Translations under genes and position numbers: made by a program
The notes under the pieces: generated by a model
Seen by the model: only the letters and a program-made list of their open reading frames with translations
What the model was told of the DNA's origin: nothing
Databases searched by the model: none
In this document: positions 1-30,200 of the stretch, piece by piece
Layout of the letters: each line of letters opens with the position of its first letter
Numbering within the stretch: position 1 is the first letter of the stretch
Source of the DNA: an uncultured Desulfosarcinaceae bacterium
Lineage (GTDB): Bacteria; Desulfobacterota; Desulfobacteria; Desulfobacterales; Desulfosarcinaceae
Reading direction: 5' to 3'
DNA length: 30,200 bases
Assembly: GCA_964527275.1 (NCBI GenBank)
Contig: CAZGPF010000001.1
Coordinates: 1 to 30,200, forward strand

Positions 1-52
1 TCGTTATAGTTCGTGCTTTTTTGTGCTTTTTGCCATTACGCTGAGTAGTTAC
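1..52 (+). mobile_element. Right-end fragment of a MITE-like element, truncated by the window start
   Basis: Positions 8-52 are identical over 45 nt to 21739-21783 and end in the terminal repeat CTGAGTAGTTAC. Positions 1-7 (TCGTTAT) differ from the equivalent TTGTTGC of the central copy by three transitions. Confidence 0.85.
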
Positions 53-97: not shown

Positions 98-1885
98 ATG
101 GGTAAAATTAAGATGACCACTGAAGAGGCCTTTGTGAAGATCCTGCAGATGCATGGAATCGAACATGCGTTTGGTATCATCGGTTCGGCTTTTATGCCGA
201 TATCCGACCTTTTTCCCAAAGCAGGGATCACCTTCTGGGATGTCGGACATGAAGGTAACGCCGGCATGATGGCGGACGGATTTACCCGCGCCTCCGGCAA
301 AATGTCCATGATGATCGCCCAGAACGGCCCCGGCATCACCAATTTCGTGACACCGGTTAAAACCGCCTACTGGAATCACACGCCCCTGCTGCTGGTCACT
401 GCCCAGGCGGCCAATATGACCATGGGTCAGGGTGGTTTCCAGGAGGTCCCCCAAATGGCTGTCTTTGAAGAGATGGTGGCCTACCAGGAAGAGGTCTTAC
501 ATCCCTCCCGGATAGCGGAGGTCCTCAGCCGGGTGATCGTGCAGGCCAGAAGGGCGTCCGCCCCGGCCCAGATTAATATCCCGCGGGACTTCTGGACCCA
601 GGTTATTGAGATTGAAATGCCCGCCAGCGTTGAATTGGAGTGTCCGGCCGGCGGCGAGGAGGCCATTGCCCAGGCGGCCGAACTTCTGTCCAAGGCAAAG
701 TTCCCGGTGATCTTGAACGGCGGTGGCGTGGTTATCGGCGGCGCCATTCAAGAGACCGTGGCCCTGGCTGAACGGCTGGACGCACCAGTATGCTGCGGCT
801 ATCAGCACAATGATGCCTTTCCGGGCAGCCATCCGCTGTTCGCCGGTCCTTTGGGCTACAATGGCTCCAAGGCCGGAATGCAGCTCATATCCAAGGCCGA
901 TGTGGTATTGGCTCTCGGCACGCGTTTGAATCCTTTCTCCACACTGCCGGGCTACGGCATCGATTACTGGCCAAACAAGGCTTCCATTATCCAGGTTGAT
1001 ATGAACCCCAATCGTATCGGCCTGACCAAACCGGTCGCCGTGGGTATTGCCGGAGACGCCAGCAAAGTCGCCAACGCGATTATGGCAAAGCTCACCCCCT
1101 CCGCCGGCGATGATGGCCGTGAAGAACGCAAAGCCGCCATCACAAAAATTAAAGCCGCCTGGACCCGAGAGCTGGCAACCATGGACCATGAAGATGATGA
1201 TCCCGGTACCACCTGGAACCAACGCGCCCAAGAGAGGGACCCTGAAAAAATGACGGTCCGCATGGCATGGCGCGCCATCATCAAGGCCTTGCCCAAAGAG
1301 GCCATCATCTCTTCGGATATTGGCAACAACTGCGCCATCGGCAATGCCTATCCGACTTTCGAGGCGGGGCGCAAATATCTGGCGCCGGGCATGTTCGGAC
1401 CCTGCGGGTACGGATTTCCGGCTATCCTGGGCGCGAAAATCGCCAAGCCCGACGTTCCGGTGGTGGGTTTTGCCGGCGACGGCGCCTTCGGCATCTCGAT
1501 GAACGAGATGACAGCCTGCGGCCGCAAGGAGTGGCCAGCCATTACCATGATCATCTTCCGCAACTATCAGTGGGGGGCGGAGAAACGCAATACCACCCTT
1601 TGGTATGACGACAACTTTGTAGGCACCGAACTAGATATCGCTGTCTCTTACGCCGGCATAGCCAAGGCCTGCGGCATGGAAGGTGTTCAGGTCACCACCC
1701 CGGATGCCTTGACCGAGGCCTTGGACAGGGCCGTCAAGGCTCAGATGGAAGATGGCCGCACGACCTTTATCGAGGTGCTGAACAATCAGGAGCTGGGCGA
1801 ACCCTTCCGTCGTGATGCCATGAAAAAGCCGGTTGTCGCGGCGGGGATCGACAAGCAGGAGATGCGTCCCCAGAAGGGTGTATAA
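98..1885 (+). CDS. xsc: Sulfoacetaldehyde acetyltransferase (ThDP-dependent)
   Basis: 595 aa. N-terminus MTTEEAFVKILQMHGIEHAFGIIGSAFMPISDLFP and QNGPGITNFVT..KTAYWNHTP are typical of Xsc. ThDP motif GDGAFGISMNE..N and C-terminal ELGEPFRRDAMKKPV. AAGGAG Shine-Dalgarno upstream. Confidence 0.93.
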   Translation: MGKIKMTTEEAFVKILQMHGIEHAFGIIGSAFMPISDLFPKAGITFWDVGHEGNAGMMADGFTRASGKMSMMIAQNGPGITNFVTPVKTAYWNHTPLLLVTAQAANMTMGQGGFQEVPQMAVFEEMVAYQEEVLHPSRIAEVLSRVIVQARRASAPAQINIPRDFWTQVIEIEMPASVELECPAGGEEAIAQAAELLSKAKFPVILNGGGVVIGGAIQETVALAERLDAPVCCGYQHNDAFPGSHPLFAGPLGYNGSKAGMQLISKADVVLALGTRLNPFSTLPGYGIDYWPNKASIIQVDMNPNRIGLTKPVAVGIAGDASKVANAIMAKLTPSAGDDGREERKAAITKIKAAWTRELATMDHEDDDPGTTWNQRAQERDPEKMTVRMAWRAIIKALPKEAIISSDIGNNCAIGNAYPTFEAGRKYLAPGMFGPCGYGFPAILGAKIAKPDVPVVGFAGDGAFGISMNEMTACGRKEWPAITMIIFRNYQWGAEKRNTTLWYDDNFVGTELDIAVSYAGIAKACGMEGVQVTTPDALTEALDRAVKAQMEDGRTTFIEVLNNQELGEPFRRDAMKKPVVAAGIDKQEMRPQKGV

Positions 1886-1989
1886 GGCGCAATTTGAAAA
1901 TATGAGAGTTGGCACCATGAGCAGGGGGCTAGCGCCACTTCTCCTGGTGCCGCCTGGAGAATCTTTAGCCCATTACCGGAGACCGAAAA

Positions 1990-3360
1990 ATGATTGATCT
2001 TAGAAACATTCCGTCGTCCAAAGAAGACCTTGACCGCTATGAAGTGGAAAACAATTTCCAGTCATGGTCCTATCAAACCGAACAGTCGCCTCCACGGGTC
2101 GTATCGGCCAAAGGGGTTCGTTTTACAACTGAGGACGGAAGGGAGCGACTCGATTTCAGCTCCTGTTTCGTCAGCCACAACATCGGTCATCAGGACGCAC
2201 GAGTGGTGGATGCGATCTGCGCACAGGCCAGAACCTTGACCTCCTTTGCTCCCAGCATGTCAACAAAACCTCGGGCCCTGTTCGCTAAAATGATGGCCGA
2301 AATCACCCCCGGCGATCTGTCGCGTTCATTCATATCCCTGGGAGGTACCGAAGCCAACGAGGCGGCCGTAAAAATCGCCCACCAGTATACCGGACGGCGC
2401 AAGATTGTGACCCGTTTCCGTACCTATCACGGCGCAACGGCCACATCGATGTCCCTCTCCGCCGGCGATTCCCGTAGCTGGGCCCAGGTGTTGGGAGGCA
2501 CGGAGATAGTTCGCGTGCCCCAGCCGTACTGCTACAGGTGCATGTTCGGCCAGAAATATCCAGACTGCGATCTGCAATGCGTCAAGTATGTCGATGAGGT
2601 CATTGAGCTGGAGGGGGGCGGTGACAAGGTGGCCGGCATCATTTGTGAGCCGGTAACCGGCGCCAACGGCATTATCGTCCCTCCGCCGGAGTATTTTCCC
2701 GAACTGCGCAAAGTTTGCGATAAATGGGGCGCGCTGCTGATCGCCGATGAAGTGATGACCGGATTCGGCCGCACCGGCAAATGGTTTGCAATGGATCATT
2801 GGGATGTGGTGCCCGACATCATGACCCTGGCCAAGGGCATGACCTGCGGCTATCAGCCACTGGGCGTCACCATCGTACGTACGCATATCGGCGAGCGGTT
2901 CAAGGGACAGTTCTTCAGCCACGGGGCTACCTACGCCGGCCATGCGCTGGGTTGCGCTACGGCCTTGTCCCTCATACCCATCTATGAGGAGGACAATCTC
3001 ATCGAAAACTCCGCCAGGCTGGGCGAGTATCTTCTTCAAAGAGCCCTGGAACTCAAGGAGCGGCATGCCTGCGTTGGAGATGTTCGCGGGCTGGGACTTT
3101 TCGTAGGGCTCGAACTGATCAAGAACAAGAAGACCAAAGAGCCGTTGACGGCCGTGGACGCCAAAATCCGGCCGGGCCTGAATCCCAAACTGGAAATCGC
3201 CAAAAAACTTGGTGAATTGGGGATCATGGCCATGGCCGCCAATCCTGTAAACGTTATCGCCCTGGCGCCGCCGCTTATCATTACCAAGGACGAAATCGAC
3301 GAAGGTATTGAGAAAATAGACAAGGCCCTCGAAGTCGGTGACGGCTATGTCGAGGAGTAA
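1990..3360 (+). CDS. Class-III PLP aminotransferase, putative taurine/aminosulfonate transaminase
   Basis: 456 aa with GGTEANE, YHGAT, EPVTG, LIADEVMTGFGRTG, PDIMTLAKG (PLP lysine) and GDVRGLGLF. The substrate is inferred only from its position directly after xsc. Confidence 0.85.
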   Translation: MIDLRNIPSSKEDLDRYEVENNFQSWSYQTEQSPPRVVSAKGVRFTTEDGRERLDFSSCFVSHNIGHQDARVVDAICAQARTLTSFAPSMSTKPRALFAKMMAEITPGDLSRSFISLGGTEANEAAVKIAHQYTGRRKIVTRFRTYHGATATSMSLSAGDSRSWAQVLGGTEIVRVPQPYCYRCMFGQKYPDCDLQCVKYVDEVIELEGGGDKVAGIICEPVTGANGIIVPPPEYFPELRKVCDKWGALLIADEVMTGFGRTGKWFAMDHWDVVPDIMTLAKGMTCGYQPLGVTIVRTHIGERFKGQFFSHGATYAGHALGCATALSLIPIYEEDNLIENSARLGEYLLQRALELKERHACVGDVRGLGLFVGLELIKNKKTKEPLTAVDAKIRPGLNPKLEIAKKLGELGIMAMAANPVNVIALAPPLIITKDEIDEGIEKIDKALEVGDGYVEE

Positions 3361-3460
3361 GCATTGAGGAACGCCGTAACTCCGTTCGCGGGGTTCGCCC
3401 CTGGACGGACAACCGCCGCTATTGGGCTTGATGAGGGCTGCAATCGACTGGAGGGCTCCC

Positions 3461-4183
3461 ATGCAAAAGGGAATTCGACACACTAGCGGCGGCCTGTTGG
3501 AATTGAGATCATTAAGAGAACAGGTATACGATTACCTTCGTGAGGAGATGCAAAGCGGCAGGCTATTGTCCGGGTCGCTAATCAAGCCTAAGGAGATAAG
3601 TGAAAAGCTAGGCATCAGCAAAACGCCCCTTAGAGATGCGCTCATTCAGATGGAGTGTGAAGGGTTTGTCTCCATACTGCCGCGCCGTGGAGTCAGGGTT
3701 CGCAAGCTAAACATAGAGGACATCAAGAACATCCTGGAAGTTATAGGCGCCCTGGAAAGCGCGGTGGTGCTCTCGGTTTTTCCGCAGCTTGACACCACCC
3801 ATATCGAGGCCCTGCGAGGGTTGAACAACAAGATGGCCGTGGCCATCGAGGATGAAGACTTCAAGAGCTATTACGACCTGAATATCTCCTTTCACAATGT
3901 CTTTTTGCAGCTATCTGAAAACAACACCATGCATGGGATACTCATGCCGCTGAAACAGCGCTTATACGACTTTCCGCGCCGTGCCTATATAAAGGAGTGG
4001 GAGCTGATCAACTGTGAGGAGCATGCCCAGTTTATTGAGTTTATCGAAAAGGGTGACCCCCAGAGAGCTGCCGCCCTGATGCGAGACTTCCACTGGTCTT
4101 TTGAGGCCTATGAAAAGTTCATCCGGCGTTTCTACTTCGGCTCCGAGAAACGCATTGAGTCTGAACTGGCCTGGTGCAAATGA
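3461..4183 (+). CDS. GntR-family (FadR/FCD-type) transcriptional regulator
   Basis: wHTH segment LREQVYDYLREEM..ISEKLGISKTPLRDALIQMECEGFV..PRRG, followed by an FCD-like domain (NISFH, EEHAQFIE). ATG 3461 chosen because GGAGG lies upstream; the ORF track starts at 3422. Confidence 0.88.
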   Translation: MQKGIRHTSGGLLELRSLREQVYDYLREEMQSGRLLSGSLIKPKEISEKLGISKTPLRDALIQMECEGFVSILPRRGVRVRKLNIEDIKNILEVIGALESAVVLSVFPQLDTTHIEALRGLNNKMAVAIEDEDFKSYYDLNISFHNVFLQLSENNTMHGILMPLKQRLYDFPRRAYIKEWELINCEEHAQFIEFIEKGDPQRAAALMRDFHWSFEAYEKFIRRFYFGSEKRIESELAWCK

Positions 4184-5412
4184 CGAGCGACAAGCAGACT
4201 AATAAGCATATTTTAGTTGTCAATGCAGGCAGCTCCTCCGTCAAATTTACCCTCTTCCAAAAAGAAGATCTGCGGATGGTTGCCGAAGGTCTTGTTGAGC
4301 GCATCGGCCATCGCAACACTCAGGTGCTTTACAAAACCTCAGCGGGCGTGCGCGTAACCCGTAAGACGAAGGTTAGAGAGACGCGGGAAGCCGTTGAACT
4401 GGCAGCCGATATCATCATGGACAAGGATTGCGGAGTAATACAATCCAAGGCCGAGATCGGCGCTATTGGTCACCGGGTCGTCCATGGCGGCGAATATGTG
4501 AAAGAGGCCGCTGTTATCGATGAGCGTCTCACGGAGATCATCAGGGATTGTTTCGATCTGGCGCCGCTGCACAATCCCCCAAACCTGAAAGGCATTGAAG
4601 CCTGCCAGGAGCTCTTCCCCGGCGTTGCCCAAGTGGCCGTCTTTGATACAGCCTTCCATGCCAATCTGCCGGAGCATGCCTTTCTCTATGGTTTGCCTTA
4701 TGACCACTACCGGGAATACAAAATCCGCAGGTACGGCTTCCATGGCACCAGCCATAAATATGTGAGCCGCAAAGCTGCGGAAATGGTTGAACAGCCGCTT
4801 TCAGCCTTGAAGATGGTTACCTGTCATCTGGGTAATGGCTGCAGCATGGCGGCGGTCAATGAGGGCCGCAGCATCGACACCAGCATGGGGTTGACGCCTT
4901 TGGAGGGGCTGATCATGGGAACGCGTTGCGGTGATATCGATCCGAGCATCCCCCTCCACCTGATGCGCCGGCACAAAATGAGCCCGGAGCAGGTCGAAGA
5001 TCTGCTAAATCGGCAAAGTGGTCTGCTGGGTCTGGGCGGCATCGGGAGCAGTGACATGCGGGACATCGAGGCCGCTATCATCGCCGGCAACCGGCAAGCG
5101 GCAACGGCGGTACGGATTTTGGCATACCGGATCAAAAAATACATCGGCGCCTACACCTTTGCCATGGGGGGGCTCGATGTCATTGTTTTTACCGCCGGTG
5201 TCGGCGAGAATTCGGCCCTGATGCGCGCAAAGATATGCCAGGGGCTGGAACAGATGGGGATCGTAATCGATCAGGCGCTCAATGCAGCCCAAGAGCCGCA
5301 ATGCCGCCAGATCCAGTGCGAAGATGGCAGGGTGAAAATAGTGGTTATGCCCACCAATGAAGAGCAGGAGATTGCACTGCAGGTTATGGGCGTGCTTGCC
5401 GCGCCAACCTAG
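4180..5412 (+). CDS. ackA: Acetate kinase
   Basis: Motifs ILVVNAGSSSVKF, GHRVVHGG, APLHNP, FDTAFH, YGFHGTSH, HLGNGCS, GTRCGDID and FTAGVGEN. The ATG at 4180 overlaps the gntR stop (ATGA). Ends in TAG. Confidence 0.95.
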   Translation: MTSDKQTNKHILVVNAGSSSVKFTLFQKEDLRMVAEGLVERIGHRNTQVLYKTSAGVRVTRKTKVRETREAVELAADIIMDKDCGVIQSKAEIGAIGHRVVHGGEYVKEAAVIDERLTEIIRDCFDLAPLHNPPNLKGIEACQELFPGVAQVAVFDTAFHANLPEHAFLYGLPYDHYREYKIRRYGFHGTSHKYVSRKAAEMVEQPLSALKMVTCHLGNGCSMAAVNEGRSIDTSMGLTPLEGLIMGTRCGDIDPSIPLHLMRRHKMSPEQVEDLLNRQSGLLGLGGIGSSDMRDIEAAIIAGNRQAATAVRILAYRIKKYIGAYTFAMGGLDVIVFTAGVGENSALMRAKICQGLEQMGIVIDQALNAAQEPQCRQIQCEDGRVKIVVMPTNEEQEIALQVMGVLAAPT

Positions 5413-16772: not shown

Positions 16773-18203
16773 ATGACCATTGCCTCCGATTTCAAGCTGC
16801 TCGATAAAGCATCCCTCAACCGCATTCACGAAGCGACAATGGACGTCCTGGCCAATACCGGGATCGTCTTTCGTGGCGCCGAGGCGCTGGAACACTTTCG
16901 TCACCACAATGTGCGCGTGGACGGTCAGACCGTGTTCATCAACCAGGAGATCCTCGACCGAGCACTTGCCTCCGTGCCCGATGCCTTTCACTGGGCGGCC
17001 CGCAACCCCGAACGCTCAATCCTTGTAGGCCAAGGGCAAGAGGGCGTGCATATCAGCATGAACAATGGCCCCATCCATGTCCAGGACTTGGAGGGCGGGC
17101 GCCGGGCCGGTACCCTTGAGGATCTGGTAAACTTCTACAAGTTGGGTCAGCAGCTCCGCACCTGCGGCATCGTCGGTCAGATCCCGGTGGATCCTTCCGA
17201 CTTAAAAGGTAAGCAGCGGCACCTGGAGATCTTTTACCATTTGCTGCGGCATACCGACAAACCGCTATGCGGGTATGTGGGTACACAGGCCGAGATCGGC
17301 CAGATGTTCGATATGCTGGCCATCGCTTACGGCGGGGAGGACCCCTTCAAGGAGAGACACCTGATCGCCGTGTCGCTTAACCCGCTGAGCCCGCTCAAGT
17401 ACGACGAAATTCCCTGTGAAACTCTGCTGGCCTATGCCAAGCGACGGCAGCCGGTGATGGTGCTGACCTGCGCCATGTCCGGTGTTACCGCGCCAATACA
17501 ACCCCTGGGAACCGTGGTCCTGCAGAACGCCGAGATCTTGGCGGGCCTGGTGCTCTCCCAGCTGGTCAACCCGGGCACTCCCTTTGTCTACTCACCAGCA
17601 TCCGCCGTGCCCAACATGCGGACCGCCGGGTATGTGACCGGCATGCCTGTAAGTACCATGATCAACATGGCCGGCATTCAACTGGCCAAGGAGTTGTACC
17701 ACCTGCCCACCCGCTGCATGGCAGGCCTGACCGATTCCAAGACCGTCGATTGCCAGGCCGGGTATGAGACCATGCAGAACTTCCTTATGCTGGCCATGGC
17801 CGGCGTGAACATGGTCAACGAGTGCTATGGCCTGCTCGATGCCATCATGACCGTGTCGTACGAGAAGTTCATCATCGATGATGAACTATTAGATCGCGTG
17901 GCCTGCCTGTTGAAAGGTTTCGAGGTCTCGGACGAGGCCCTCTCCCTGGATGTGATCAAAAGCGTCGCCCATGACGGTGCCTATCTCACCCATCTAAGCA
18001 CTATGCAGGAGTGTCGCAAAATCTGGGCGCCTACGGTTTCGGATATGGACACCTATGCCGCCTGGGAGAAGGCGGGCTGTCCAGACATCGTTGCCCGTGC
18101 CGGCCAACAGGTTAAGACCACTCTTGCCCAATGCCCGGAGAGCATGCTCGACGACGATACGGAGCGCGCTTTGCAAGCCTACCTGGAAAAGAACCAAGTT
18201 TAG
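16773..18203 (+). CDS. Non-pyrrolysine MttB-superfamily methyltransferase (MtgB-like, quaternary amine:corrinoid)
   Basis: 476 aa with IHEATMDVLANTG, NPLSPL, APIQPLGTVVLQNAEILAG, PGTPFVY and FIIDDE. PTRCMAG-L-TDSK has Leu at the Pyl-equivalent position. Ends in TAG. Confidence 0.88.
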   Translation: MTIASDFKLLDKASLNRIHEATMDVLANTGIVFRGAEALEHFRHHNVRVDGQTVFINQEILDRALASVPDAFHWAARNPERSILVGQGQEGVHISMNNGPIHVQDLEGGRRAGTLEDLVNFYKLGQQLRTCGIVGQIPVDPSDLKGKQRHLEIFYHLLRHTDKPLCGYVGTQAEIGQMFDMLAIAYGGEDPFKERHLIAVSLNPLSPLKYDEIPCETLLAYAKRRQPVMVLTCAMSGVTAPIQPLGTVVLQNAEILAGLVLSQLVNPGTPFVYSPASAVPNMRTAGYVTGMPVSTMINMAGIQLAKELYHLPTRCMAGLTDSKTVDCQAGYETMQNFLMLAMAGVNMVNECYGLLDAIMTVSYEKFIIDDELLDRVACLLKGFEVSDEALSLDVIKSVAHDGAYLTHLSTMQECRKIWAPTVSDMDTYAAWEKAGCPDIVARAGQQVKTTLAQCPESMLDDDTERALQAYLEKNQV

Positions 18204-18409
18204 CCAAATGCGGAAACTGTAATAGACTTCAAGCATTAAGGATAGATGGAGTCTCCGGTAAAGATGCCCGGTCCGGGGATACAACTAAAACCGGGGTGGA
18301 CCAACATAGAAACAGGAGGAGCTGAAGAGAACCGTTGAAGTAGGAGTAATGGTCAACGAGCCGGCTTGCTATGCACACCGGCTGATATTTACCCATGGGA
18401 GGTTTAATC

Positions 18410-19888
18410 GTGAAACGCAACCTGTATGCGGGATTCCTGCAAAGCGGGGGGTTGAGCCTGAACATGTTTACCGACGACGAACTGGAGGCCATTCATCTGG
18501 CCACCATGCAGGTGCTCCAGCACACCGGTGTCTTCTTCGAGGACGAAGAGGCCCGGGATATACTGGCTGGCAGCGGCGCTACCGTCGATCCGGAAAGCAA
18601 GGTGGTCAAATTTCCCCCCTATCTGGTGGAGGATGCCATCCGTTCGGCGCCCTCCAAAGTTTTGTTGGCCGGGCGCGACCCGGACAACGATTATGTGTTG
18701 GAGAAGAACCGCGTGGGCTTCACCAACTTTGGCGAGGGCATCTCGATTTTTGATCTGACGTCGGGAGATCTGCGCGAGACTGTGAAACAAGATGTAGCCG
18801 ATAGCGCCGTCATCGTCGATTACCTCGACGGCGTCGATGTCTATGAACGGGCGGTAGGCGCCCACGATGTGCCTCAGGCGGTCCAGCCTCTGCACAATGC
18901 CGAAGCCTTTCTGGCCAACACCACCAAGCACTGCTTTCACGGCGCCGGTAACGGCCGCCTGATGAGGGCCGCCATCGACATGGCCGCGACCATCGTGGGC
19001 GGGCGGGACAAGCTAAAGGAGCGGCCGATCATCTCCTTTAACACCTGTCCCATCAGTCCCCTCAAGCTGGTCAGCGACTGTACCGAGGTCATTGTGGAGG
19101 GTGCCCGCTCCGGCGTGATGGTCAATGTATTGACCCAGGCCCTGGCCGGAGGAACGGCACCAGTGACCCTGGCCGGCACTTTGGTTGTACACAATGCCGA
19201 GGTTCTGGCCGGTATAACCCTCGGGCAGTTGACCCACAAGGGTACGCCGATGATGTACGGCAGCTCAACCTGTCCGCTCGATTTGAAAACTGCCACTGCC
19301 ACGGTGGGTTCGCCGGAGTGTGGCATGATCAATGCCGGGGTTGCCAACCTGGCCAACTATTACGGGCTGCCCAGCTGGGTCGCCGGTGGCTAGGCTGACA
19401 GCAAATTAGCTGACGGCCAGGCTGCCCATGAGAAGACGCTCTCAGGCCTCTTGACAGCGTTGGCAGGCGCCAACCTGATTTACGGTCTGGGGATGCTCGA
19501 ATCGGGCGTTACATTCGATTTTGGCCAGCTTGTCATGGACAACGAGTTTGCGCGGATGATCAAATGCGTCGTCAACGGAATTCCCGTGAACGACGAAACG
19601 CTTGCGGTGGATGTGATTGATACGGTAGGACCCTTTCAACAATTCCTCACGCAAAGGCACACATTCGATCATATGCGCAAGATGTCGCAGCCCAAATTGA
19701 TGGACCGCAAGGTACGCGACAAGTGGCAAAAGGACGGCGGGCGTTCAATGCATGAAAAAGCCATGGACGAGGCCCGGCGGATTCTCGCCGAGCACAAGCC
19801 CAAACCGTTGCCCGAAGACGTACTGAGTAAAATGCGCTCCATAGTTGCCGAAACGGAAGAAGAGCTTGGAGTCAAACGCGAGGCATGA
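18410..19888 (+). CDS. mttB: Pyrrolysine-containing trimethylamine:corrinoid methyltransferase (TAG 19391-19393 read as Pyl, residue 328; 492 aa)
   Basis: The track ORFs 18395-19393 and 19451-19888 share one frame, joined by an open stretch that reads GLPSWVAGG-[TAG]-ADSKLADGQAAHEKTLSGLLTALAGANLIYGLGMLE. This is the canonical MttB Pyl context, and the pyl cassette is adjacent. GTG start at 18410 after GGAGG. Confidence 0.93.
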
Positions 19889-20650: not shown

Positions 20651-20724
20651 GGAGGATGGATCGCAACGAGATCATGCGGACTCTAAATCCGCACAGCCGG
20701 GTGCAACTCCCGGATTCTCCGCCA
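20651..20724 (+). tRNA. pylT: tRNA-Pyl (anticodon CUA)
   Basis: Folds as GGAGGAT/ATTCTCC acceptor, single G linker, GATC/GATC D-stem, 6-bp TGCGGA/TCCGCA anticodon stem, loop CT-CTA-AA (anticodon 20683-20685), 3-nt variable loop CAG, CCGGG/CCCGG T-stem lacking TTC, G discriminator and encoded CCA. These are the tRNA-Pyl hallmarks. Confidence 0.96.
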
Positions 20725-20764: not shown

Positions 20765-21610
20765 GTGTACAATTGTCGGTGGTCCGACTCCCAGCTCAAG
20801 CGGCTTAAATCCCTGGGAGCGGACGCCGACACGCTGAAGCTTACCTTCGAGAATGAATCCCAACGCGATGCCGCGTTCCAGGAGCAGGCCAAAAGGCTGA
20901 CCCGCCAAAGTCGCAAACGGTTGTTGCAATTCAGGAGCGACGACCGCCGGCCGCACCTTGTCCGCCTGGAGCACCTGCTGGCCGAGGCCCTGGTCCAAGA
21001 GGGATTCACACAGATCGTCACGCCCATCATCATGTCCAGGGGACACCTGAAGCGCATGACCCTTGGCCCGGACCACCAACTCTACCGGCAAATCTTCTGG
21101 GCCGATGCCAACCGTTGTTTCCGGCCCATGCTGGCCCCCCATCTCTACTATGTCTCCAAAGATCTGCTACGCTTGTGGCCGCGCCCGCTGCGGCTGTTTG
21201 AAATCGGCCCCTGTTTTCGAAAAGAGAGCCATGGTGCACGACACCTGAACGAGTTTACCATGCTGAACCTGGTGGAGTACGGCATGCCGCAAACCGAACG
21301 GCACCGGCGACTAAAAGCGTTGACGGCTCTCATTATGGATAGGGCCACTATTGCGGATTACCGGATCGAAGAGGAGCATTCCGAAGTGTACGGTGACACA
21401 GTGGATGTCGTGGCCGGTGCGGGATCGCTGGAGGTGGCCTCTGCGGCTATGGGCCCCCATCGACTGGATGCCGCCTGGGGCGTGACCGAAACCTGGGTGG
21501 GCATCGGATTCGGCCTAGAACGCTTAACAATGGTGGCCCGGGGACGGGACAATTTGAAAAAATGTGGGCGCAGCCTTTCCAATCTGAACGGGATACCATT
21601 GAATATTTAG
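20765..21610 (+). CDS. pylSc: Pyrrolysyl-tRNA synthetase catalytic (C-terminal) subunit
   Basis: RPMLAPHLY, LRLFEIGPCFRKES, HLNEFTMLNLVE, VYGDTVDV, EVASAAMGP and WVGIGFGLERL. Lies directly after pylT. GTG start; ends in TAG. Confidence 0.95.
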   Translation: MYNCRWSDSQLKRLKSLGADADTLKLTFENESQRDAAFQEQAKRLTRQSRKRLLQFRSDDRRPHLVRLEHLLAEALVQEGFTQIVTPIIMSRGHLKRMTLGPDHQLYRQIFWADANRCFRPMLAPHLYYVSKDLLRLWPRPLRLFEIGPCFRKESHGARHLNEFTMLNLVEYGMPQTERHRRLKALTALIMDRATIADYRIEEEHSEVYGDTVDVVAGAGSLEVASAAMGPHRLDAAWGVTETWVGIGFGLERLTMVARGRDNLKKCGRSLSNLNGIPLNI

Positions 21611-21611
21611 C

Positions 21612-21783
21612 GTAACTACTCAGAGCACTTCATCTTCGGCCCTTCAGGCCTTTCCATATAGCGATGCTATTATGAAAAGACCTGAATGACCGAACCTAAA
21701 GCACTCTGAGCAGTTACAGTTCGAGATAGAATTGTTGCAGTTCGTGCTTTTTTGTGCTTTTTGCCATTACGCTGAGTAGTTAC
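21612..21783 (+). mobile_element. Complete 172-bp MITE-like element with 12-bp TIRs and an 8-bp target-site duplication
   Basis: Begins GTAACTACTCAG and ends CTGAGTAGTTAC (perfect inverted repeat). Flanked by TATTTAGC at both 21604-21611 and 21784-21791. Other copies at 1-52 and 30148-30200. No transposase in the window. Confidence 0.88.
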
Positions 21784-21792
21784 TATTTAGCC

Positions 21793-22884
21793 ATGAAGTC
21801 GTCTGAACTGGAAAATATATTGTCGCAGGCTCGCGACGGTCATGGATTGACACTCCGGGCGATGTCAGCGCTGCTGAAACTTGACTGCCCTGGGCAGATC
21901 GAAGCCCTTTTTAAAGCGGCACGCCAGGTGCGCAAAACTTTCAGCCACCAGCGTATCTTTCTCTACGGGTTTTTATACACCAGCACCCACTGTCGCAATA
22001 ACTGTCGTTTTTGTAAATTTCGCCGTGACAATGACGGCTTCCGGCGTTACCGCAAGAACTTCGACCAGATCGTGGCTGCGGCCGCCAGGCTGGCATCTTC
22101 GGGCGTGCATCTCATCGATCTGACCATGGGGGAAGATCCGACGCTTTTCCGTCGGGGGACGGACTCCTTGCCGGAACTCGTGCGAGCGGTGCGTCAGGTC
22201 AGCGGTCTGCCGCTGATGGTGTCGCCGGGGTGGCTGCCGTCGTACCAACTGGAACTGCTGGCCGCATCCGGCGCGGATTGGTATGCCTGTTATCAAGAGA
22301 CCCATTCGAAAAGGCTGTTTCGATATCTTCGGCCTGGGCAGGATTTTGGGCGACGCATGGCCGCCAAGGAGGCCGCCCGCAAGGCGGGGCTTTTGGTTGA
22401 GGAGGGCATTCTGTGTGGCATTGGCGAGTCTGATCGGCAGGTAGTCGATTCTCTGGTAGCCATGGCCGCCATGGACGCCGACCAGGTGCGGGTTATGAAC
22501 TTCGTGCCCCAGCCGGGCACCCCTCTGGCGGAAAGTCCCCAAGCCAACAATCTGCGCGAGCGCATGATTATCGCCATCATGCGCCTGGCTTTTCCGGACA
22601 AGCTGATTCCGGCCTCCCTCGATGTGGAAGGGCTCAAGGGCCTGCGGCAAAGGCTCGATGCAGGGGCCAACGTCGTGACATCACTTGTGCCGCCCGGAGA
22701 GGGTTTTTGCGGCGTGGCCGGCGGCAGGCTGGATATCGACAATGCTCGCCGAACGGCGCCGGCCGTGCGCCGAGTCATCGAATCCGCCGGACTGCGGGTG
22801 GCCCAGCCACAAGAGCTAGGTGCATGGATGCGCTTGCGACGCCATGCGGTTGTGCGTCGCGGGTCTCTGTGGAGATCGGCATGA
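21793..22884 (+). CDS. pylB: 3-methylornithine synthase (radical SAM)
   Basis: IFLYGFLYTSTHCRNNCRFC (CxxxCxxC), SGVHLIDLTMGEDP, WYACYQET, EEGILCGIGES, RVMNFVPQPGTP, LIPASLDVEG and AGANVVTS. ATG 21793 chosen; the upstream in-frame start at 21754 lies inside the MITE. Confidence 0.93.
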   Translation: MKSSELENILSQARDGHGLTLRAMSALLKLDCPGQIEALFKAARQVRKTFSHQRIFLYGFLYTSTHCRNNCRFCKFRRDNDGFRRYRKNFDQIVAAAARLASSGVHLIDLTMGEDPTLFRRGTDSLPELVRAVRQVSGLPLMVSPGWLPSYQLELLAASGADWYACYQETHSKRLFRYLRPGQDFGRRMAAKEAARKAGLLVEEGILCGIGESDRQVVDSLVAMAAMDADQVRVMNFVPQPGTPLAESPQANNLRERMIIAIMRLAFPDKLIPASLDVEGLKGLRQRLDAGANVVTSLVPPGEGFCGVAGGRLDIDNARRTAPAVRRVIESAGLRVAQPQELGAWMRLRRHAVVRRGSLWRSA

Positions 22885-24041
22885 ATATCGCGTTGGTCGG
22901 CGGCGGTCTGCAAGGTGTCGAAACCGCCTACCTGGCCCGCAAGGCCGGATGGCATGTGACCTTAGTGGATCGCCGACTTTCGCCGCCTGCCAGGGGTCTT
23001 AGCCAGGCCTTCAAACAGATCGATGTCGGTGACGGCGCTGAAATCAAGCATATCTTCGAGCAGGTCGATTTGGTCTTGCCGGCCCTCGAAAATCGGGTAG
23101 CGCTCGATGCCCTGGTGGCTGCGGCCAAAGGGGCCAAAACGCCCTTGGCTTTCGATCCCGCAGCCTATGCGGTTACCTGCTCCAAAGCGGCATCAAACCG
23201 CCTTTTTGCGCAACTCAACCTGCTGCTACCATCGGAAGATGGGCAACACCGGGGGGCGGTGATCGTCAAACCCAACAGTGGCAGCGGCAGCAGCGGCGTC
23301 AGACTCTTTTCCTCCCGTCAGGCGGCCAAGAGATTTCTCGCGCACAGACCGCAAAAGAAACCTTTGTTATGTCAGCAGTTTCTGGATGGTCCCACTTTTT
23401 CCATCGAGGTGCTTGGCCGTCCCGGTCAATACCGGACTTTCGCTGTGACCGACCTTTTCATGGACGAGGCTTTTGACTGTAAGCGCGTGCGTGCGCCGTC
23501 AAGCTTGCCCCCCGTTCATCAGGCGACTTTGGCCGCTATGTCGCACCTGCTTGCCGAAGCCCTTGCGCTAACGGGGCTCATGGATGTGGAGGTTGTATTA
23601 TGGGAAGATCGGCTCTATGTGCTGGAAATTGACGCTCGTATTCCCAGCCAGACACCCACCGCCGTTTACTGGACCAGCGGGGTCAATCTCATTGAGTTGT
23701 TAGGCAACCTGTTTGTCCCGCGACATATTTCTGTTGCGAGGCCTGAAACTCCCAAACGCGCTGTAGTCTATGAACACATCGGCGTGCAGCAAGGCCTGGT
23801 CCATGTTTGTGGTGAAAGCCGGCTGGGCCGCGCTGGTTCTCTGCGCCTGGTTGCCGATTTTTTCGGCTGTGATGAAGCCATAACCGATTTTGAAAAGGGC
23901 TGCGACGCCTGGGCGGCCACTCTGATCTGTTGCGGCAAAGATCCCGCTGCGGCCTGGCGCAAGCGTTGCGCCGCGATTGAGCGCATTGGCGACGCCTGCA
24001 ACCCTGGGGTTGTCGCTCAGCCGGCGGGAGGCAGCGTATGA
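22881..24041 (+). CDS. pylC: 3-methylornithine--L-lysine ligase (ATP-grasp)
   Basis: MNIALVGGGLQGVETAYLARKAG, VKP..GSGS.GV, GPTFSIEV, MDVEV, LEIDARIPSQTPTAVYWTSGVN. ATGA overlap with the pylB stop. Confidence 0.92.
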   Translation: MNIALVGGGLQGVETAYLARKAGWHVTLVDRRLSPPARGLSQAFKQIDVGDGAEIKHIFEQVDLVLPALENRVALDALVAAAKGAKTPLAFDPAAYAVTCSKAASNRLFAQLNLLLPSEDGQHRGAVIVKPNSGSGSSGVRLFSSRQAAKRFLAHRPQKKPLLCQQFLDGPTFSIEVLGRPGQYRTFAVTDLFMDEAFDCKRVRAPSSLPPVHQATLAAMSHLLAEALALTGLMDVEVVLWEDRLYVLEIDARIPSQTPTAVYWTSGVNLIELLGNLFVPRHISVARPETPKRAVVYEHIGVQQGLVHVCGESRLGRAGSLRLVADFFGCDEAITDFEKGCDAWAATLICCGKDPAAAWRKRCAAIERIGDACNPGVVAQPAGGSV

Positions 24042-24889
24042 CACGCCTCTGTGCAGATGATATCCATGAGATTGCCGCTACCATGCCGGCATACGAACGC
24101 AGGCTGCGGAAAGTGACCGGACACAGCCTGCGGGAGTTGGCCCTGCGGGCCTGTGGATACCATGACGCCACTTTACGGTTGGGCTTCGATGACGACCCCA
24201 CCGTGGTGGTTCCGGTAACATCGGGAAAGGGGATCATCGACGGCTTTTCGGACGCCGTAGCCGCCATATTGAACCACATCGGGTTTAAGGCCCATGTCGC
24301 TTCCCGTCTGGATGTGGCTGGGCTGGCCGATGCCTGCGAGAGCGGGGCGCGCATGGTTCTGATGGCCGATGATCACAGCTTCAATGCGCTGAATCTTTTT
24401 ACCCGCCGTGTGGCGGACAACAGCACGGCCACGGGTCGAGGTTTTGCCACCGCCCTGGAGTTGCTGGCCGGTCCGTTGCAAGGCAGACCAGTGTTGGTTT
24501 TGGGTTGTGGTGCGGTGGGTCGAGGCGCCGCTATCCTCCTGGCCGACCTGGGCGCCAGTGTAGGGCTTTTGGATCGGGAGGTGGAAAAGGCGCGGGCACT
24601 CGCGGCATCGATTACGTCGTATCTAGAGCTTCCGGTGGTTATTGAAGATCAGTTGGAACGGGTTGTTTCGAGATACGACCTGATATTGGATGCCACGCCA
24701 GCGGCCAACATCATAGCCCCGTCTTTTGTGACGCCCCGGACCGTAATCTCGGCTCCCGGGGTTCCTTGCGGGCTGCATCCTCTTAAAATGGCGGATATGG
24801 CCTCGCGTCTGATTCACGATCGATTGCAAATCGGAGTGGCCACCATGGCCGTAGAGGCCTGGCTGCCGCCCCCCGGGTCCCGAGCATGA
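24038..24889 (+). CDS. pylD: 3-methylornithyl-N6-lysine dehydrogenase (pyrrolysine synthase)
   Basis: MTRL, VVPVTSGKGIIDGFSDAV, MADDHSF, DNSTATGRGF, Rossmann VLGCGAVG, PGVPCG and HDRLQIGVATM. ATGA overlap with pylC. Confidence 0.92.
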   Translation: MTRLCADDIHEIAATMPAYERRLRKVTGHSLRELALRACGYHDATLRLGFDDDPTVVVPVTSGKGIIDGFSDAVAAILNHIGFKAHVASRLDVAGLADACESGARMVLMADDHSFNALNLFTRRVADNSTATGRGFATALELLAGPLQGRPVLVLGCGAVGRGAAILLADLGASVGLLDREVEKARALAASITSYLELPVVIEDQLERVVSRYDLILDATPAANIIAPSFVTPRTVISAPGVPCGLHPLKMADMASRLIHDRLQIGVATMAVEAWLPPPGSRA

Positions 24890-25233
24890 CCAAGAGGCGC
24901 CAAAGAAAAGCGACCAAACGCTACTATCGTAAGCGGGTTGAATTATTCCGTCTGCTTGCTAAGATTAAACTATGGCCGTCGCGTCGGGGGGTGCTGCACG
25001 GCATCAGGACCATCGAGGTTGCAGGGGACTATGCCTTGGTGGTCACCCACTGCGGACGCAGCTTCAGGGTGCGAAATTCGCGCAACAGCCGAGCAGCCCG
25101 CTGGCTGCGCAACAAATGGTTTCATGGCGTATGCTCCCTTTGTAGGGTGCCTGATTGGAAGCTCGAAAAATATGCTGCCACACGGTTTTCACGCAAGAGT
25201 GGATCGGATCTTAGCCATCATACCCCATCCTGA
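24886..25233 (+). CDS. pylSn: Pyrrolysyl-tRNA synthetase N-terminal tRNA-binding subunit
   Basis: KRYYRKRVELFRLLAKIKLWPSRRGVLHGI..THCG..VRNSRNSRAARWLRNKW..C..CRVPDWKLEKY. Last gene of the canonical bacterial pyl gene order. Confidence 0.95.
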   Translation: MTKRRQRKATKRYYRKRVELFRLLAKIKLWPSRRGVLHGIRTIEVAGDYALVVTHCGRSFRVRNSRNSRAARWLRNKWFHGVCSLCRVPDWKLEKYAATRFSRKSGSDLSHHTPS

Positions 25234-28660: not shown

Positions 28661-30200
28661 TGGAACTTCCGTCTATTCTCATAGTGGATGACGATGCCGC
28701 GCACTGCGCCAACCTCGAGGATATTCTCAAACTGGAAGGTTACACCACCGTAACCGCCGGATCGGTGGCCACGGCCCATGAGCGATTCGAGGATCACCGG
28801 CCCACCATTCTGCTGCTCGATCTTAAATTGCCCGATGGGACGGGTACCCAGTTGTTGGCCGAGTTGAAGCAGAAGAACCCCGATTGCTACGGCGTGATCA
28901 TAACGGCCCACGCGGACCTCGATTCGGCGGTGGCAGCCCTTGACGAAGGGGCATACTACTATCTGCGCAAGCCGTTTCGGGTGGACGAATTGCTGGGGCT
29001 TTTAAAACGCATATTCGAAGCCATCCGGCTACGGGATCAGAAACGCCAGGCTGAACGCGCCCTGCGCCACAGCCAGGAAAAATTGGCCGGTATCATCGAC
29101 GCCGTGGCCGATATCATGTTGATGATCGATGAGCACGGGACCGTTACCTGGACCAATGAAATGGGCCGCCGCATTTTCGGCCCCGACCTAGAGGGGCACG
29201 GCTACAGCGAAGTCATCCACGGGCAGGACTCACCACCGGAGGAGTGTATCGTCCAGCAATGTTTTGCTGACAGTTCCCAGAACGACATGGAGATCGTGAT
29301 TACCGACAGAGAGGGCCTCAAGTTGAATTTCTGGTTCACCGCCAACGTGGCCCTGAAGGACCGCTGGGGGGCCCCCAGGCATGTGGTCATGGTCGGTCGT
29401 AACACCACCGAGATCAAGAACCTCCAGGCCGAGGCGTCCCGCAACGCACATCTGGCCTCCCTGGGGGAACTGGCCGCCGGAGTGGCCCATGAGATTAACA
29501 ACCCCATCAACGGCATCATCAATTATGGTGAAATCCTCGTTGAGCAGTGCGCCAAGACCGGGTCAGACGACGACATTCCGCAACGCATCATCAAGGAAGG
29601 CGACCGCATTGCGCTAATCGTGCGTAAGCTGCTCTCATTTGCTCGTGAAGGCAATGACGAACGAGTAGCTGTGGATTTGTCAGCCGTCCTGCTGGATGCG
29701 CTGGAACTCAACCAGGCCATGCTCGACAAGGACCACATTCAATTGAAGCTCGAAATCGAGGACTCGCTGCCCCACTGCCTGGTGGATGCCCAGCAGATCC
29801 AGCAGATTTTTCTGAACATCATCAGCAACGCCCGGCACGCGCTGACCTGGAAATATCCCCAGGCAGATCCCGACAAAGTTCTTACCATCGGCATGCAACC
29901 AGTTGAGCTTGAAGGCCAACCCCATGTGCGGACCTTCTTTACCGATCGGGGGGAAGGTATTGCGGCTGATATTCTGGACAAAATCTGCAACCCTTTTTTT
30001 TCCACCAAACCGGCCGACCGAGGAACCGGACTGGGTTTGAGTATCAGTTTCAGCATTGTCGAAAATCACAGCGGCCACCTCTGGTTCGAGAGTGTGGAAG
30101 GCGAGTTTACCAAGGTGGTAATTGACCTGCCAACTTCTATCCCCGAGGTAACTACTCAGAGCACTTCATCTTCGGCCCTTCAGGCCTTTCCATATAGCGA
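28660..30200 (+). CDS. Cytoplasmic hybrid kinase (REC, PAS-like, HisKA, HATPase); frame open to the window end
   Basis: Absent from the ORF track because there is no stop before the window end; translated by hand. MELPSILIVDDD, LLLDLKLPD (Asp at 28819), ITAH, YLRKPF, AGVAHEINNP (His at 29488), NIISNA, DRGEG, PFFSTK and GTGLGLSI. The start overlaps the previous stop (TGATG). Confidence 0.88.
   Translation, partial: MELPSILIVDDDAAHCANLEDILKLEGYTTVTAGSVATAHERFEDHRPTILLLDLKLPDGTGTQLLAELKQKNPDCYGVIITAHADLDSAVAALDEGAYYYLRKPFRVDELLGLLKRIFEAIRLRDQKRQAERALRHSQEKLAGIIDAVADIMLMIDEHGTVTWTNEMGRRIFGPDLEGHGYSEVIHGQDSPPEECIVQQCFADSSQNDMEIVITDREGLKLNFWFTANVALKDRWGAPRHVVMVGRNTTEIKNLQAEASRNAHLASLGELAAGVAHEINNPINGIINYGEILVEQCAKTGSDDDIPQRIIKEGDRIALIVRKLLSFAREGNDERVAVDLSAVLLDALELNQAMLDKDHIQLKLEIEDSLPHCLVDAQQIQQIFLNIISNARHALTWKYPQADPDKVLTIGMQPVELEGQPHVRTFFTDRGEGIAADILDKICNPFFSTKPADRGTGLGLSISFSIVENHSGHLWFESVEGEFTKVVIDLPTSIPEVTTQSTSSSALQAFPYS
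30148..30200 (+). mobile_element. Left-end fragment of the same MITE-like element, truncated by the window end
   Basis: 53/53 nt identical to 21612-21664; begins GTAACTACTCAG. Confidence 0.88.

What the first reader, a model, noticed from the sequence alone, without database searches (positions are those of the whole stretch)
21604..21795. MITE with an 8-bp target duplication inserted precisely at the pylSc-pylB junction
Seen: TATTTAGC-[GTAACTACTCAG...172 bp...CTGAGTAGTTAC]-TATTTAGC. The duplicated target contains the pylSc stop. Removing the element and one duplicate gives ...AAT ATT TAG CC ATG AAG..., placing the pylB ATG 2 nt after the pylSc stop, in line with the tight ATGA couplings of pylB-C-D-Sn. 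Both frames survive, but pylB now has no recognisable Shine-Dalgarno and is preceded by a long hairpin and T-tracts. Established: TIRs plus a target duplication indicate DDE-transposase mobilisation. Inference: a recent insertion (45/45 and 53/53 nt identity to the other copies) uncoupled Pyl biosynthesis from the synthetase and may tune or silence the 22nd amino acid. A TTGCCA-17-TATTTA spacing across the right junction could alternatively form a weak new promoter. I cannot assign the element to a named IS family.
Basis: partly seen in the sequence, partly recalled or inferred. Interest (0 to 1): 0.7.

Follow-up and report, generated by a model that had tools for sequence, protein, structure and literature searches.

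The report
IS66-type MITE splitting pylSc from pylB
A 172-bp non-coding jumping element, a miniature relative of IS66/ISBst12 insertion sequences, landed very recently between the pyrrolysine synthetase gene and the first pyrrolysine biosynthesis gene of a ciliate-associated sulfate-reducer-like bacterium; this is an ordinary transposition event, and its effect on the 22nd amino acid is untested.

Summary
Bases 21612-21783 are a 172-bp element with perfect 12-bp terminal inverted repeats (GTAACTACTCAG). It is flanked by an 8-bp duplication, TATTTAGC, that contains the pylSc UAG stop.

Close relatives carry the predicted empty site, ...GAATATTTAGCCATGAAG..., with the pylB ATG 2 nt after the stop. 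These are two contigs with 98% PylSc identity, one with 81%, and four 'ciliate metagenome' runs. A reciprocal case also exists: a 100% identical copy sits in a relative where the window is empty. Five further copies have their own 8-bp duplications.

The same terminus, GTAACTAYTCAGCG, ends IS66-family transposase genes. One is a complete 1718-bp single-transposase IS with an 8-bp duplication. The terminus also nearly matches the published ends of ISDge4 (ISBst12 group). The element is probably present in hundreds of copies in this genome, and the window's own ends are broken copies.

The functional reading is plausible but untested. It holds that translational coupling is lost and that pylB, with no Shine-Dalgarno, now sits behind a strong hairpin. 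No promoter or terminator is called in the element.

Verdict: a new member of a known kind, of modest interest.

The parts
21612..21783 (+). 172-bp MITE. The left-end module is an imperfect 106-bp palindrome (21612-21717) and the right-end module is 66 bp (21718-21783). There is no usable ORF in any frame.
21604..21611 (.). Left copy of the 8-bp target-site duplication TATTTAGC. It contains the pylSc TAG stop at 21608-21610.
   Evidence: single copy in the empty sites of L001, L002 and runs X1-X4
21784..21791 (.). Right copy of the target-site duplication TATTTAGC, 1 nt before the pylB ATG.
21612..21623 (+). Left terminal inverted repeat GTAACTACTCAG.
21772..21783 (-). Right terminal inverted repeat. 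The 18-nt terminus GTAACTACTCAGCGTAAT, read inward, is identical to the end of an IS66-family IS in L008.
21706..21717 (-). Internal third TIR-like site GTAACTGCTCAG (1 mismatch). It closes the 106-bp palindromic left module.
20765..21610 (+). pylSc, the catalytic subunit of the split pyrrolysyl-tRNA synthetase. Intact at 281 aa, the same length as in relatives.
21793..22884 (+). pylB (radical SAM), intact at 363 aa. It now lies 182 nt after the pylSc stop instead of 2 nt.
20651..20724 (+). pylT, tRNA-Pyl with anticodon CUA.
22881..25233 (+). pylC (22881-24041), pylD (24038-24889) and pylSn (24886-25233), chained to pylB by ATGA overlaps.
1..52 (+). Right end of another copy of the same MITE, cut by the start of the window. 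Its outer flank is AGCTTTTT, and it lies 45 nt upstream of the ORF that starts at 98.
30148..30200 (+). Left end of another copy, cut by the end of the window. It is inserted in the 3' end of a histidine-kinase gene. The complete 173-bp copy, with TSD TCCCCGAG, is at the same site in relative L001 (19204-19376).
18191..18198 (.). Empty target GAACCAAG, just before the TAG stop of the 476-aa MttB-family gene. In relative L001 this site holds a copy in reverse orientation that is 172/172 identical to the pyl copy and flanked by GAACCAAG on both sides.

Best explanation
The 172 bp at 21612-21783 are a non-autonomous miniature inverted-repeat transposable element (MITE). It derives from, and is mobilised in trans by, a single-ORF IS66-family (ISBst12-group) DDE transposase.

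The transposase made a staggered 8-bp cut at TATTTAGC, which is the last two bases of the final pylSc sense codon, the UAG stop and one further base. Repair duplicated those 8 bp. Both reading frames are untouched, but the pylSc stop and the pylB start are now 182 nt apart instead of 2 nt.

The event is very recent and polymorphic among near-identical strains. It belongs to a burst that left probably hundreds of copies in this ciliate-associated Desulfobacterales-like genome.

Inferred and not shown: pylB has no Shine-Dalgarno in either allele, so it was most likely translated by termination-reinitiation from pylSc. The insertion removes that coupling and places the start 9 nt behind a very stable hairpin. 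PylB is therefore expected to be translated less, and so are PylC, PylD and PylSn through their ATGA overlaps. The operon is probably still transcribed through the element.
For: **Anatomy**
- Perfect 12-bp TIRs and a perfect 8-bp duplication.
- No ORF in any of the six frames.

**Empty sites**
- L001 and L002 (PylSc 98% identical) read ...CCATTGAATATTTAGCCATGAAG....
- L003 (81% identical) has the ATG 2 nt after the stop.
- Contigs in runs X1 and X3 skip exactly 180 bases (21603->21784). In X1, X2 and X4 the flank continues directly into CATGAAG....
- No indexed run holds the filled junction.

**Reciprocal polymorphism**
- L001 7255-7426 is 172/172 identical, in reverse orientation, with TSD GAACCAAG. 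The window has the single target there.

**Other copies with 8-bp TSDs**
- L001B TCCCCGAG, L007 AAATCCTT, L015 AATCAAAC and L014 AATTGATG (offset by 1 nt).
- Related MITEs in other phyla: L017, L016, L022 and L009 (7/8).

**Family**
- In L008, an ORF matching DDE_Tnp_IS66 (E=1.3e-27) ends 17 nt before the identical 18-nt terminus.
- L024 2293-4010 is a complete 1718-bp IS with ends GTAACTATTCAGCG, TSD AAATTGTT, and DUF6444 plus DDE_Tnp_IS66 ORFs. It scores 268 bits against NCBIfam NF033517, above the 180-bit cut-off.
- L025 and L026 show the same arrangement.
- Published ISDge4 (ISBst12 group) has TIRs GTGACTACTCAGCA and GTAACTGCTCAGCA, an 8-bp direct repeat and observed transposition (PMC12898284).

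**Abundance**
- 488-567 contigs per run touch the element.
- A core unitig has depth 5357 against 10.1 for single-copy flanks in X4.
- There are 3 copies in this 30-kb window.
- An L008-like IS66 transposase gene is present in the same runs at about 5-10 times single-copy depth.

**Structure**
- The RNA fold of 21600-21800 gives -64.8 kcal/mol, z = -5.55, with the TIRs paired.
- The ATGA overlaps downstream are real.
Against: - The autonomous partner with exactly these ends was not recovered from this genome. In the same metagenomes only fragments of a related IS66 transposase gene were seen.
- The filled allele is seen only in the window itself. I could not inspect raw reads of its source sample.
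- The expression consequence is pure inference. The metatranscriptome contigs show no signal anywhere on pylSc-pylSn, and those samples carry the empty allele anyway.
- No terminator is called in the element, so transcriptional polarity is not predicted.
- All pyl ORFs and the UAG-containing mttB remain intact. There is therefore no sign that the pathway has been lost.
Confidence: 0.9

Rival explanations
1. The element is the same MITE, but the insertion is effectively neutral. RNA polymerase reads through, pylB initiates on its own as well as before, and the copy persists only because it is recent and drift is strong in a host-associated population.
For: - No terminator is called in the element.
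- All pyl ORFs are intact.
- The element sits at or near gene 3' ends in three cases, as expected if only harmless insertions survive.
- Differences between strains are rich in non-synonymous changes (23 non-synonymous against 14 synonymous codons in pylSc, pylB, pylC and pylSn). This is consistent with weak purifying selection in general.
Against: - pylB has no Shine-Dalgarno.
- Its start now lies 9 nt after the 3' arm of a -64.8 kcal/mol hairpin.
- In all empty-site relatives the start is 2 nt from the pylSc stop, an arrangement typical of translational coupling.
Confidence: 0.35
2. The insertion creates a new promoter for pylBCD-Sn: a hybrid -35 TTGCCA in the element and a -10 TATTTA in the duplicated target. 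This would make Pyl biosynthesis transcriptionally independent of pylT-pylSc.
For: TTGCCA (21761-21766), a 17-nt spacer and TATTTA (21784-21789) are present.
Against: - The consensus scan does not call it. TATTTA matches TATAAT at only 3 of 6 positions and lacks the final T.
- The -10 hexamer ends 3 nt before the ATG, so a transcript would start at or after the start codon.
- No other promoter is called inside the element on either strand.
Confidence: 0.04
3. The copy at the pyl junction is an assembly artefact: a repeat wrongly spliced into the contig. On this reading the real genome has the empty site.
For: - All four indexed DNA runs show only the empty allele, and no run holds the filled junction.
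- The contig itself ends in this repeat at both sides.
Against: - A mis-join would not create a perfect 8-bp duplication of exactly the sequence that is single in the empty allele.
- Nor would it give an element of exactly the family length (172 bp).
- The reciprocal case (filled in L001, empty in the window) shows that such polymorphisms are real in this lineage.
Confidence: 0.03

Closest known systems
ISDge4 of Deinococcus geothermalis (IS66 family, ISBst12 group; PMC12898284)
   Same: Near-identical terminal sequence: GTGACTACTCAGCA and GTAACTGCTCAGCA, against GTAACTACTCAGCG, GTAACTACTCAGAG and the internal GTAACTGCTCAGAG here. It makes an 8-bp direct repeat on insertion, and its transposition was observed experimentally.
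   Different: ISDge4 is an autonomous IS with a 449-aa transposase. The element here is 172 bp, non-coding, and carries three terminus-like sites.
The 1718-bp IS in locus L024 (ENA ERZ25039495 contig_105041), and the IS ends in L008, L025 and L026
   Same: Ends GTAACTAYTCAGCG. L024 has an 8-bp TSD (AAATTGTT). The L008 end is identical to the MITE's right end over 18 nt.
   Different: These elements encode DUF6444 plus a DDE_Tnp_IS66 transposase and come from other organisms. Similarity to the MITE stops after 14-18 nt.
Classical bacterial MITEs, for example the IS982-derived MITE of Cardinium (PMC9769881) and MITEPsy1/2 of Pseudomonas syringae (PMC3189936)
   Same: Small size, non-coding, TIRs copied from a parent IS, a fixed-length TSD, many copies, insertion polymorphism between strains, and enrichment in host-associated bacteria.
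   Different: The parent family differs. My literature searches found no description of an IS66- or ISBst12-derived MITE. That is absence in the searched library, not proof of novelty.
Bacterial pylT-pylSc-pylB-pylC-pylD-pylSn clusters of Desulfobacterales and Desulfitobacterium type (from my own knowledge of the pathway)
   Same: Same gene order, a split synthetase, and tight or overlapping gene junctions. A UAG-containing mttB with a PYLIS element lies next door.
   Different: Here the pylSc-pylB junction is interrupted by 180 extra bases.

Membership tests
Bacterial MITE | Short (under about 500 bp) with no transposase ORF | tested here: met
   The element is 172 bp and has stops in all six frames.
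Bacterial MITE | Terminal inverted repeats | tested here: met
   12/12 perfect: GTAACTACTCAG / CTGAGTAGTTAC.
Bacterial MITE | Fixed-length target-site duplication at independent copies | tested here: met
   8 bp at the window's pyl copy and at L001A, L001B, L007 and L015. L014 has 8 bp with a 1-nt offset. Related elements L016, L017 and L022 are perfect and L009 is 7/8. L004 and L012 are not clean.
Bacterial MITE | Multiple dispersed copies | tested here: met
   There are 3 copies in the window. 488-567 contigs per metagenome run touch the element, and core depth is about 500 times single-copy depth in X4.
Bacterial MITE | Presence/absence polymorphism with a precise empty site | tested here: met
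   The pyl site is empty in L001, L002 and X1-X4. The mttB-end site is filled in L001 and empty in the window.
Bacterial MITE | Autonomous partner with the same ends in the same genome | tested here: inconclusive
   Fragments of an IS66 transposase gene about 85-90% identical to L008's are present in X1-X4 at 5-10 times single-copy depth. Their ends were not recovered.
IS66 family, ISBst12 group (as parent of the MITE) | Ends begin 5'-GTAA and resemble those of characterised members | tested here: met
   12/14 and 12/14 identity to the published ISDge4 TIRs (PMC12898284). The right end is identical over 18 nt to the IS end in L008.
IS66 family, ISBst12 group (as parent of the MITE) | 8-bp direct target repeat | tested here: met
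   the full IS in L024 is also 8 bp.
IS66 family, ISBst12 group (as parent of the MITE) | An IS66-type DDE transposase lies between such ends, without tnpA or tnpB | tested here: met
   L024 is 1718 bp and contains only DUF6444 plus DDE_Tnp_IS66 ORFs, scoring 268 bits against NF033517 (cut-off 180). L008, L025 and L026 have an IS66 DDE ORF ending just inside the terminus. This was shown in relatives, not in this genome.
IS66 family, ISBst12 group (as parent of the MITE) | The transposase binds these ends and mobilises the MITE in trans | not testable with these tools
   Needs a transposition or binding assay.
Bacterial pyl operon with split PylS | pylT (CUA), pylSc, pylB (radical SAM), pylC (ATP-grasp) and pylD (PylD_N) in one cluster | tested here: met
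Bacterial pyl operon with split PylS | pylSn, the N-terminal tRNA-binding subunit | tested here: inconclusive
   A 115-aa ORF at 24886-25233 sits in the expected position and is conserved in L003 (115 aa), but it has no Pfam hit.
Bacterial pyl operon with split PylS | A client gene with an in-frame UAG | tested here: met
   mttB at 18395-19888 has an in-frame UAG at 19391. Rfam PYLIS_3 matches 19391-19490 at 74.8 bits.
Intrinsic terminator inside the element | GC-rich hairpin followed by a T-run | tested here: not met
   None is called in 21612-21783 on either strand.
Sigma-70 promoter across the right junction | Two hexamers matching at least 9 of 12 positions, with T at position 6 of the -10 | tested here: not met
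   Not called. TATTTA matches TATAAT at 3 of 6 positions.

The most novel reading that the evidence does not exclude
The MITE acts as a strain-level switch of genetic-code expansion. By breaking pylSc-pylB coupling and burying the SD-less pylB start behind a hairpin, it would strongly lower or abolish pyrrolysine synthesis while leaving tRNA-Pyl and the synthetase expressed. Near-identical strains with and without the element would then differ in whether UAG can be read as the 22nd amino acid, and so in whether the UAG-containing trimethylamine methyltransferase is made.
Probability: 0.15. Interest if true: 0.6.

Novelty: new member of a known kind. Interest (0 to 1): 0.35.

Why it matters
In itself this is ordinary: a transposon-derived repeat that landed between two genes. 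It is useful for three reasons.

1. It ties a widespread and so far unnamed set of MITEs to the little-studied ISBst12 group of the IS66 family. These MITEs all end in GTAACTACTCAGCG and occur in Desulfobacterales-like, Thiotrichaceae, Methylococcales, Ignavibacteriaceae and other MAGs.
2. It documents a large, ongoing MITE burst in a ciliate-associated bacterium. The burst breaks short-read assemblies and differs between strains that are about 99% identical.
3. It offers a natural filled-versus-empty pair for testing how much pyrrolysine biosynthesis depends on translational coupling to the synthetase gene.

Tried and rejected
- **Exact-protein look-up of the window's PylSc.** It is not on record, so I went through homologues instead.
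- **Scan of genome contigs with a degenerate 20-mer for both ends.** One hit (L010) lies inside an ABC-ATPase ORF and is probably chance. L011, L018 and L020 had no transposase next to the match.
- **Searching runs for the filled junctions.** One 60-mer gave no run. The other had too few indexed words.
- **Rfam.** Nothing real matches the element, only sub-threshold miRNA-like hairpin hits at 19-28 bits against cut-offs of 80-93.
- **Promoter and terminator scan.** Nothing is called in the element.
- **Metatranscriptomes.** They are too thin to say anything about the pyl genes.
- **Literature.** I found no paper linking Kentrophoros or other ciliate symbionts with pyrrolysine, and none describing an IS66-derived MITE. 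The Kentrophoros study (PMC6593406) has a matching layout, with separate metagenome and metatranscriptome studies from 2019. I could not verify that the coded runs belong to it.
- **In-frame GTG at 21754 as a new pylB start.** It has no Shine-Dalgarno and lies in the hairpin arm, so I rejected it as unsupported.
- **UAG read-through of pylSc into the element.** It would end at a second in-frame UAG at 21659 or at the TGA at 21683, and yields nothing meaningful.
Full report
**1. The observation**

The window reads ...ATTGAA TATTTAGC | GTAACTACTCAG...CTGAGTAGTTAC | TATTTAGC C ATG AAG....
- The duplicates are at 21604-21611 and 21784-21791, and the element is at 21612-21783 (172 bp).
- The 12-bp ends are perfect inverted repeats.
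- The 12-mer occurs four times perfectly in the window and once more with one mismatch. Shuffles give 0.8 matches expected at up to two mismatches, and none of 100 shuffles reached five.
  - tRNA-Pyl (CUA) at 20651-20724;
  - pylSc at 20765-21610, with its TAG inside the left duplicate;
  - pylB at 21793-22884 (radical SAM);
  - pylC (ATP-grasp);
  - pylD (PylD_N);
  - a 115-aa ORF in the pylSn position.
- The ATGA overlaps at pylB/C, C/D and D/Sn are real.
- Element plus one duplicate is 180 bp, exactly 60 codons.

**2. It is an insertion, and the empty site exists**

The closest PylSc homologue (98% identity) lies on two public contigs, L001 and L002. Both read ...CCATTGAATATTTAGCCATGAAG..., which is the target once, with no element and the pylB ATG 2 nt after the pylSc stop. 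An 81% relative, L003, has the same 2-nt spacing.

Four DNA runs labelled 'ciliate metagenome' hold the locus at 99% identity or more.
- In X1 and X3, contigs skip exactly 180 bases (21603->21784).
- In X1, X2 and X4, the pylSc flank runs straight into CATGAAGT....
- No indexed run holds the filled left junction.

The filled allele is therefore known only from the window. It arose after strains that are otherwise nearly identical had diverged.

The reverse case also exists. L001 carries a copy that is 172/172 identical to the pyl copy, in reverse orientation and flanked by GAACCAAG on both sides, 3 nt before the TAG stop of the 476-aa MttB-family gene. The window has the single GAACCAAG at 18191-18198.

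The half-copy at the window's right end (30148-30200) is complete in L001. There it is 173 bp with TSD TCCCCGAG, inside the 3' end of a histidine-kinase gene.

**3. Family**

Other copies at 97-99% identity occur in MAG contigs L007, L014 and L015. Their 8-bp duplications are AAATCCTT, AATTGATG (offset by one base) and AATCAAAC.

The terminus GTAACTACTCAGCGTAAT also ends unrelated small elements (95-206 bp, and one of 721 bp). These are in MAGs of Thiotrichaceae, Methylococcaceae, Ignavibacteriaceae, Polaromonas and others, most again with 8-bp duplications.

Several results link this terminus to IS66-family transposases.
- In L008, an ORF matching DDE_Tnp_IS66 (E=1.3e-27) stops 17 nt before this same 18-nt terminus.
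- Homologues of that ORF led to L024. It holds a complete IS at 2293-4010: 1718 bp, ends GTAACTATTCAGCG, TSD AAATTGTT. It contains only a DUF6444 ORF and a DDE_Tnp_IS66 ORF, which scores 268 bits against NCBIfam NF033517 (cut-off 180).
- L025 and L026 show the same right end just after the transposase gene.
- A 2026 paper describes ISDge4 of Deinococcus geothermalis as an ISBst12-group member of the IS66 family. It has a single 449-aa transposase, TIRs GTGACTACTCAGCA and GTAACTGCTCAGCA, and an 8-bp direct repeat, and it was caught transposing (PMC12898284).

The ends of the element here differ from those TIRs at two of fourteen positions. I therefore file it as a MITE of the ISBst12 group of the IS66 family. 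In the same ciliate metagenomes, fragments of a transposase gene about 85-90% identical to L008's are present at roughly 5-10 times single-copy depth. This is a candidate partner, but its ends were not recovered.

**4. Anatomy**
- The left 106 bp (21612-21717) are an imperfect palindrome, made of a left end and an inverted, diverged left end.
- The remaining 66 bp carry two T-tracts and the IS-type right end. The element therefore has three terminus-like sites.
- As RNA, 21600-21800 folds to -64.8 kcal/mol (z = -5.55) with the outer TIRs paired.
- Rfam has nothing for it.

**5. Abundance and host**
- Between 488 and 567 contigs per run touch the element, and 177-210 touch its left end.
- In X4, a 37-nt core unitig has depth 5357 against 10.1 for the flank. 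That is roughly 500 copy-equivalents if all copies are in this organism.
- This agrees with three copies in 30 kb.
- Both ends of the window are broken copies, as expected for a short-read contig.
- L014, from a MAG labelled Desulfobacula sp., has the same depth profile across X1-X4 as the window (15.8, about 12, 39.3 and about 11, against 7.6-17.4, 13.8, 33.5 and 10.1). It is probably the same organism.

**6. What it does to the pyl operon (inference)**

pylB has no Shine-Dalgarno in either allele. The 20 nt before the ATG are ...CCATTGAATATTTAGCC in the empty site. With the stop 2 nt upstream, and ATGA overlaps downstream, the operon looks translationally coupled throughout.

After the insertion, the terminating ribosome is 182 nt away, and the start sits 9 nt after the 3' arm of the hairpin. 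I expect lower PylB translation and, through coupling, lower PylC, PylD and PylSn.

Several things argue against a stronger effect.
- No terminator or promoter is called in the element.
- All pyl ORFs are intact.
- The UAG-containing mttB is intact: UAG at 19391, with PYLIS_3 at 74.8 bits.

The metatranscriptome contigs show weak RNA on the transporter genes, on mttB including the UAG site, and on the element itself. They show none on the pyl genes, and those samples carry the empty allele. The functional claim therefore remains open.

**7. Verdict**

The structural finding is real and now well documented. The element is a new member of a known kind, an ISBst12/IS66-type MITE. The link to the 22nd amino acid is a testable but unproven idea.

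Noticed in passing
window 18395-19888 (UAG at 19391-19393; Rfam PYLIS_3 at 19391-19490): A trimethylamine methyltransferase gene (mttB) with an in-frame UAG, followed immediately by a PYLIS_3 match (74.8 bits against a 38-bit cut-off). Two 151-nt metatranscriptome contigs in X8 cover the UAG site.
   Followed up: partly
window 1-52 and 30148-30200: Both ends of the window are broken copies of the same MITE. The window is probably a whole short-read contig that ended at repeats.
   Followed up: yes
L001 7255-7426 versus window 18191-18203: In the 98% relative, a MITE copy sits 3 nt before the TAG stop of the 476-aa MttB-family gene and changes its C-terminus (NQV* to NQGNYSA*). Each strain thus has its own MITE inside the methylamine/pyl gene cluster.
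   Followed up: yes
window 21606-21613 with the element removed (TTTAGCCA) and 18199-18206 (TTTAGCCA): Both polymorphic insertion sites lie at or next to the same 8-mer, TTTAGCCA (...TT TAG CCA...). The four other sites examined lack it, so it is probably coincidence rather than a target motif.
   Followed up: partly
L014 1-52: The start of this contig belongs to a second high-copy repeat, unrelated to the MITE. Its depth is 1161-4745 against about 12-39 for the rest of the contig, and many different flanks join it. The genome therefore carries at least one more expanded repeat family.
   Followed up: no
L015 2820-2945: 74 nt of a MITE left end are followed directly by a fresh left end. This looks like one copy inserted into another. 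L015 1531-1682 is a 152-bp deletion variant.
   Followed up: partly
window 20765-25233 versus L001 10001-14289: The pyl genes of the two strains differ at about 1% of bases, with more non-synonymous than synonymous codon changes (23 against 14 in pylSc, pylB, pylC and pylSn). This suggests weak purifying selection, or very recent divergence.
   Followed up: partly
L009 1994-2025, L017 3619-3650 and L011 7380-7411: In a Thiotrichaceae MAG, related 189-bp elements carry two right-end terminus copies 20 nt apart. Multiple terminus sites seem common in this MITE family.
   Followed up: no
RNA runs X5-X8 on window 21612-21783: Metatranscriptome contigs contain the element. One is exactly 172 nt, and two continue into flanks other than the pyl locus. 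Some copies are therefore transcribed, or DNA is carried over in the RNA libraries.
   Followed up: partly
L024 2543-3981: The transposase of the full-length IS is split into two overlapping ORFs: a 158-aa DUF6444 ORF and a 326-aa DDE_Tnp_IS66 ORF, overlapping at 3001-3019. This is either a frameshift, possibly programmed, or an assembly error.
   Followed up: no
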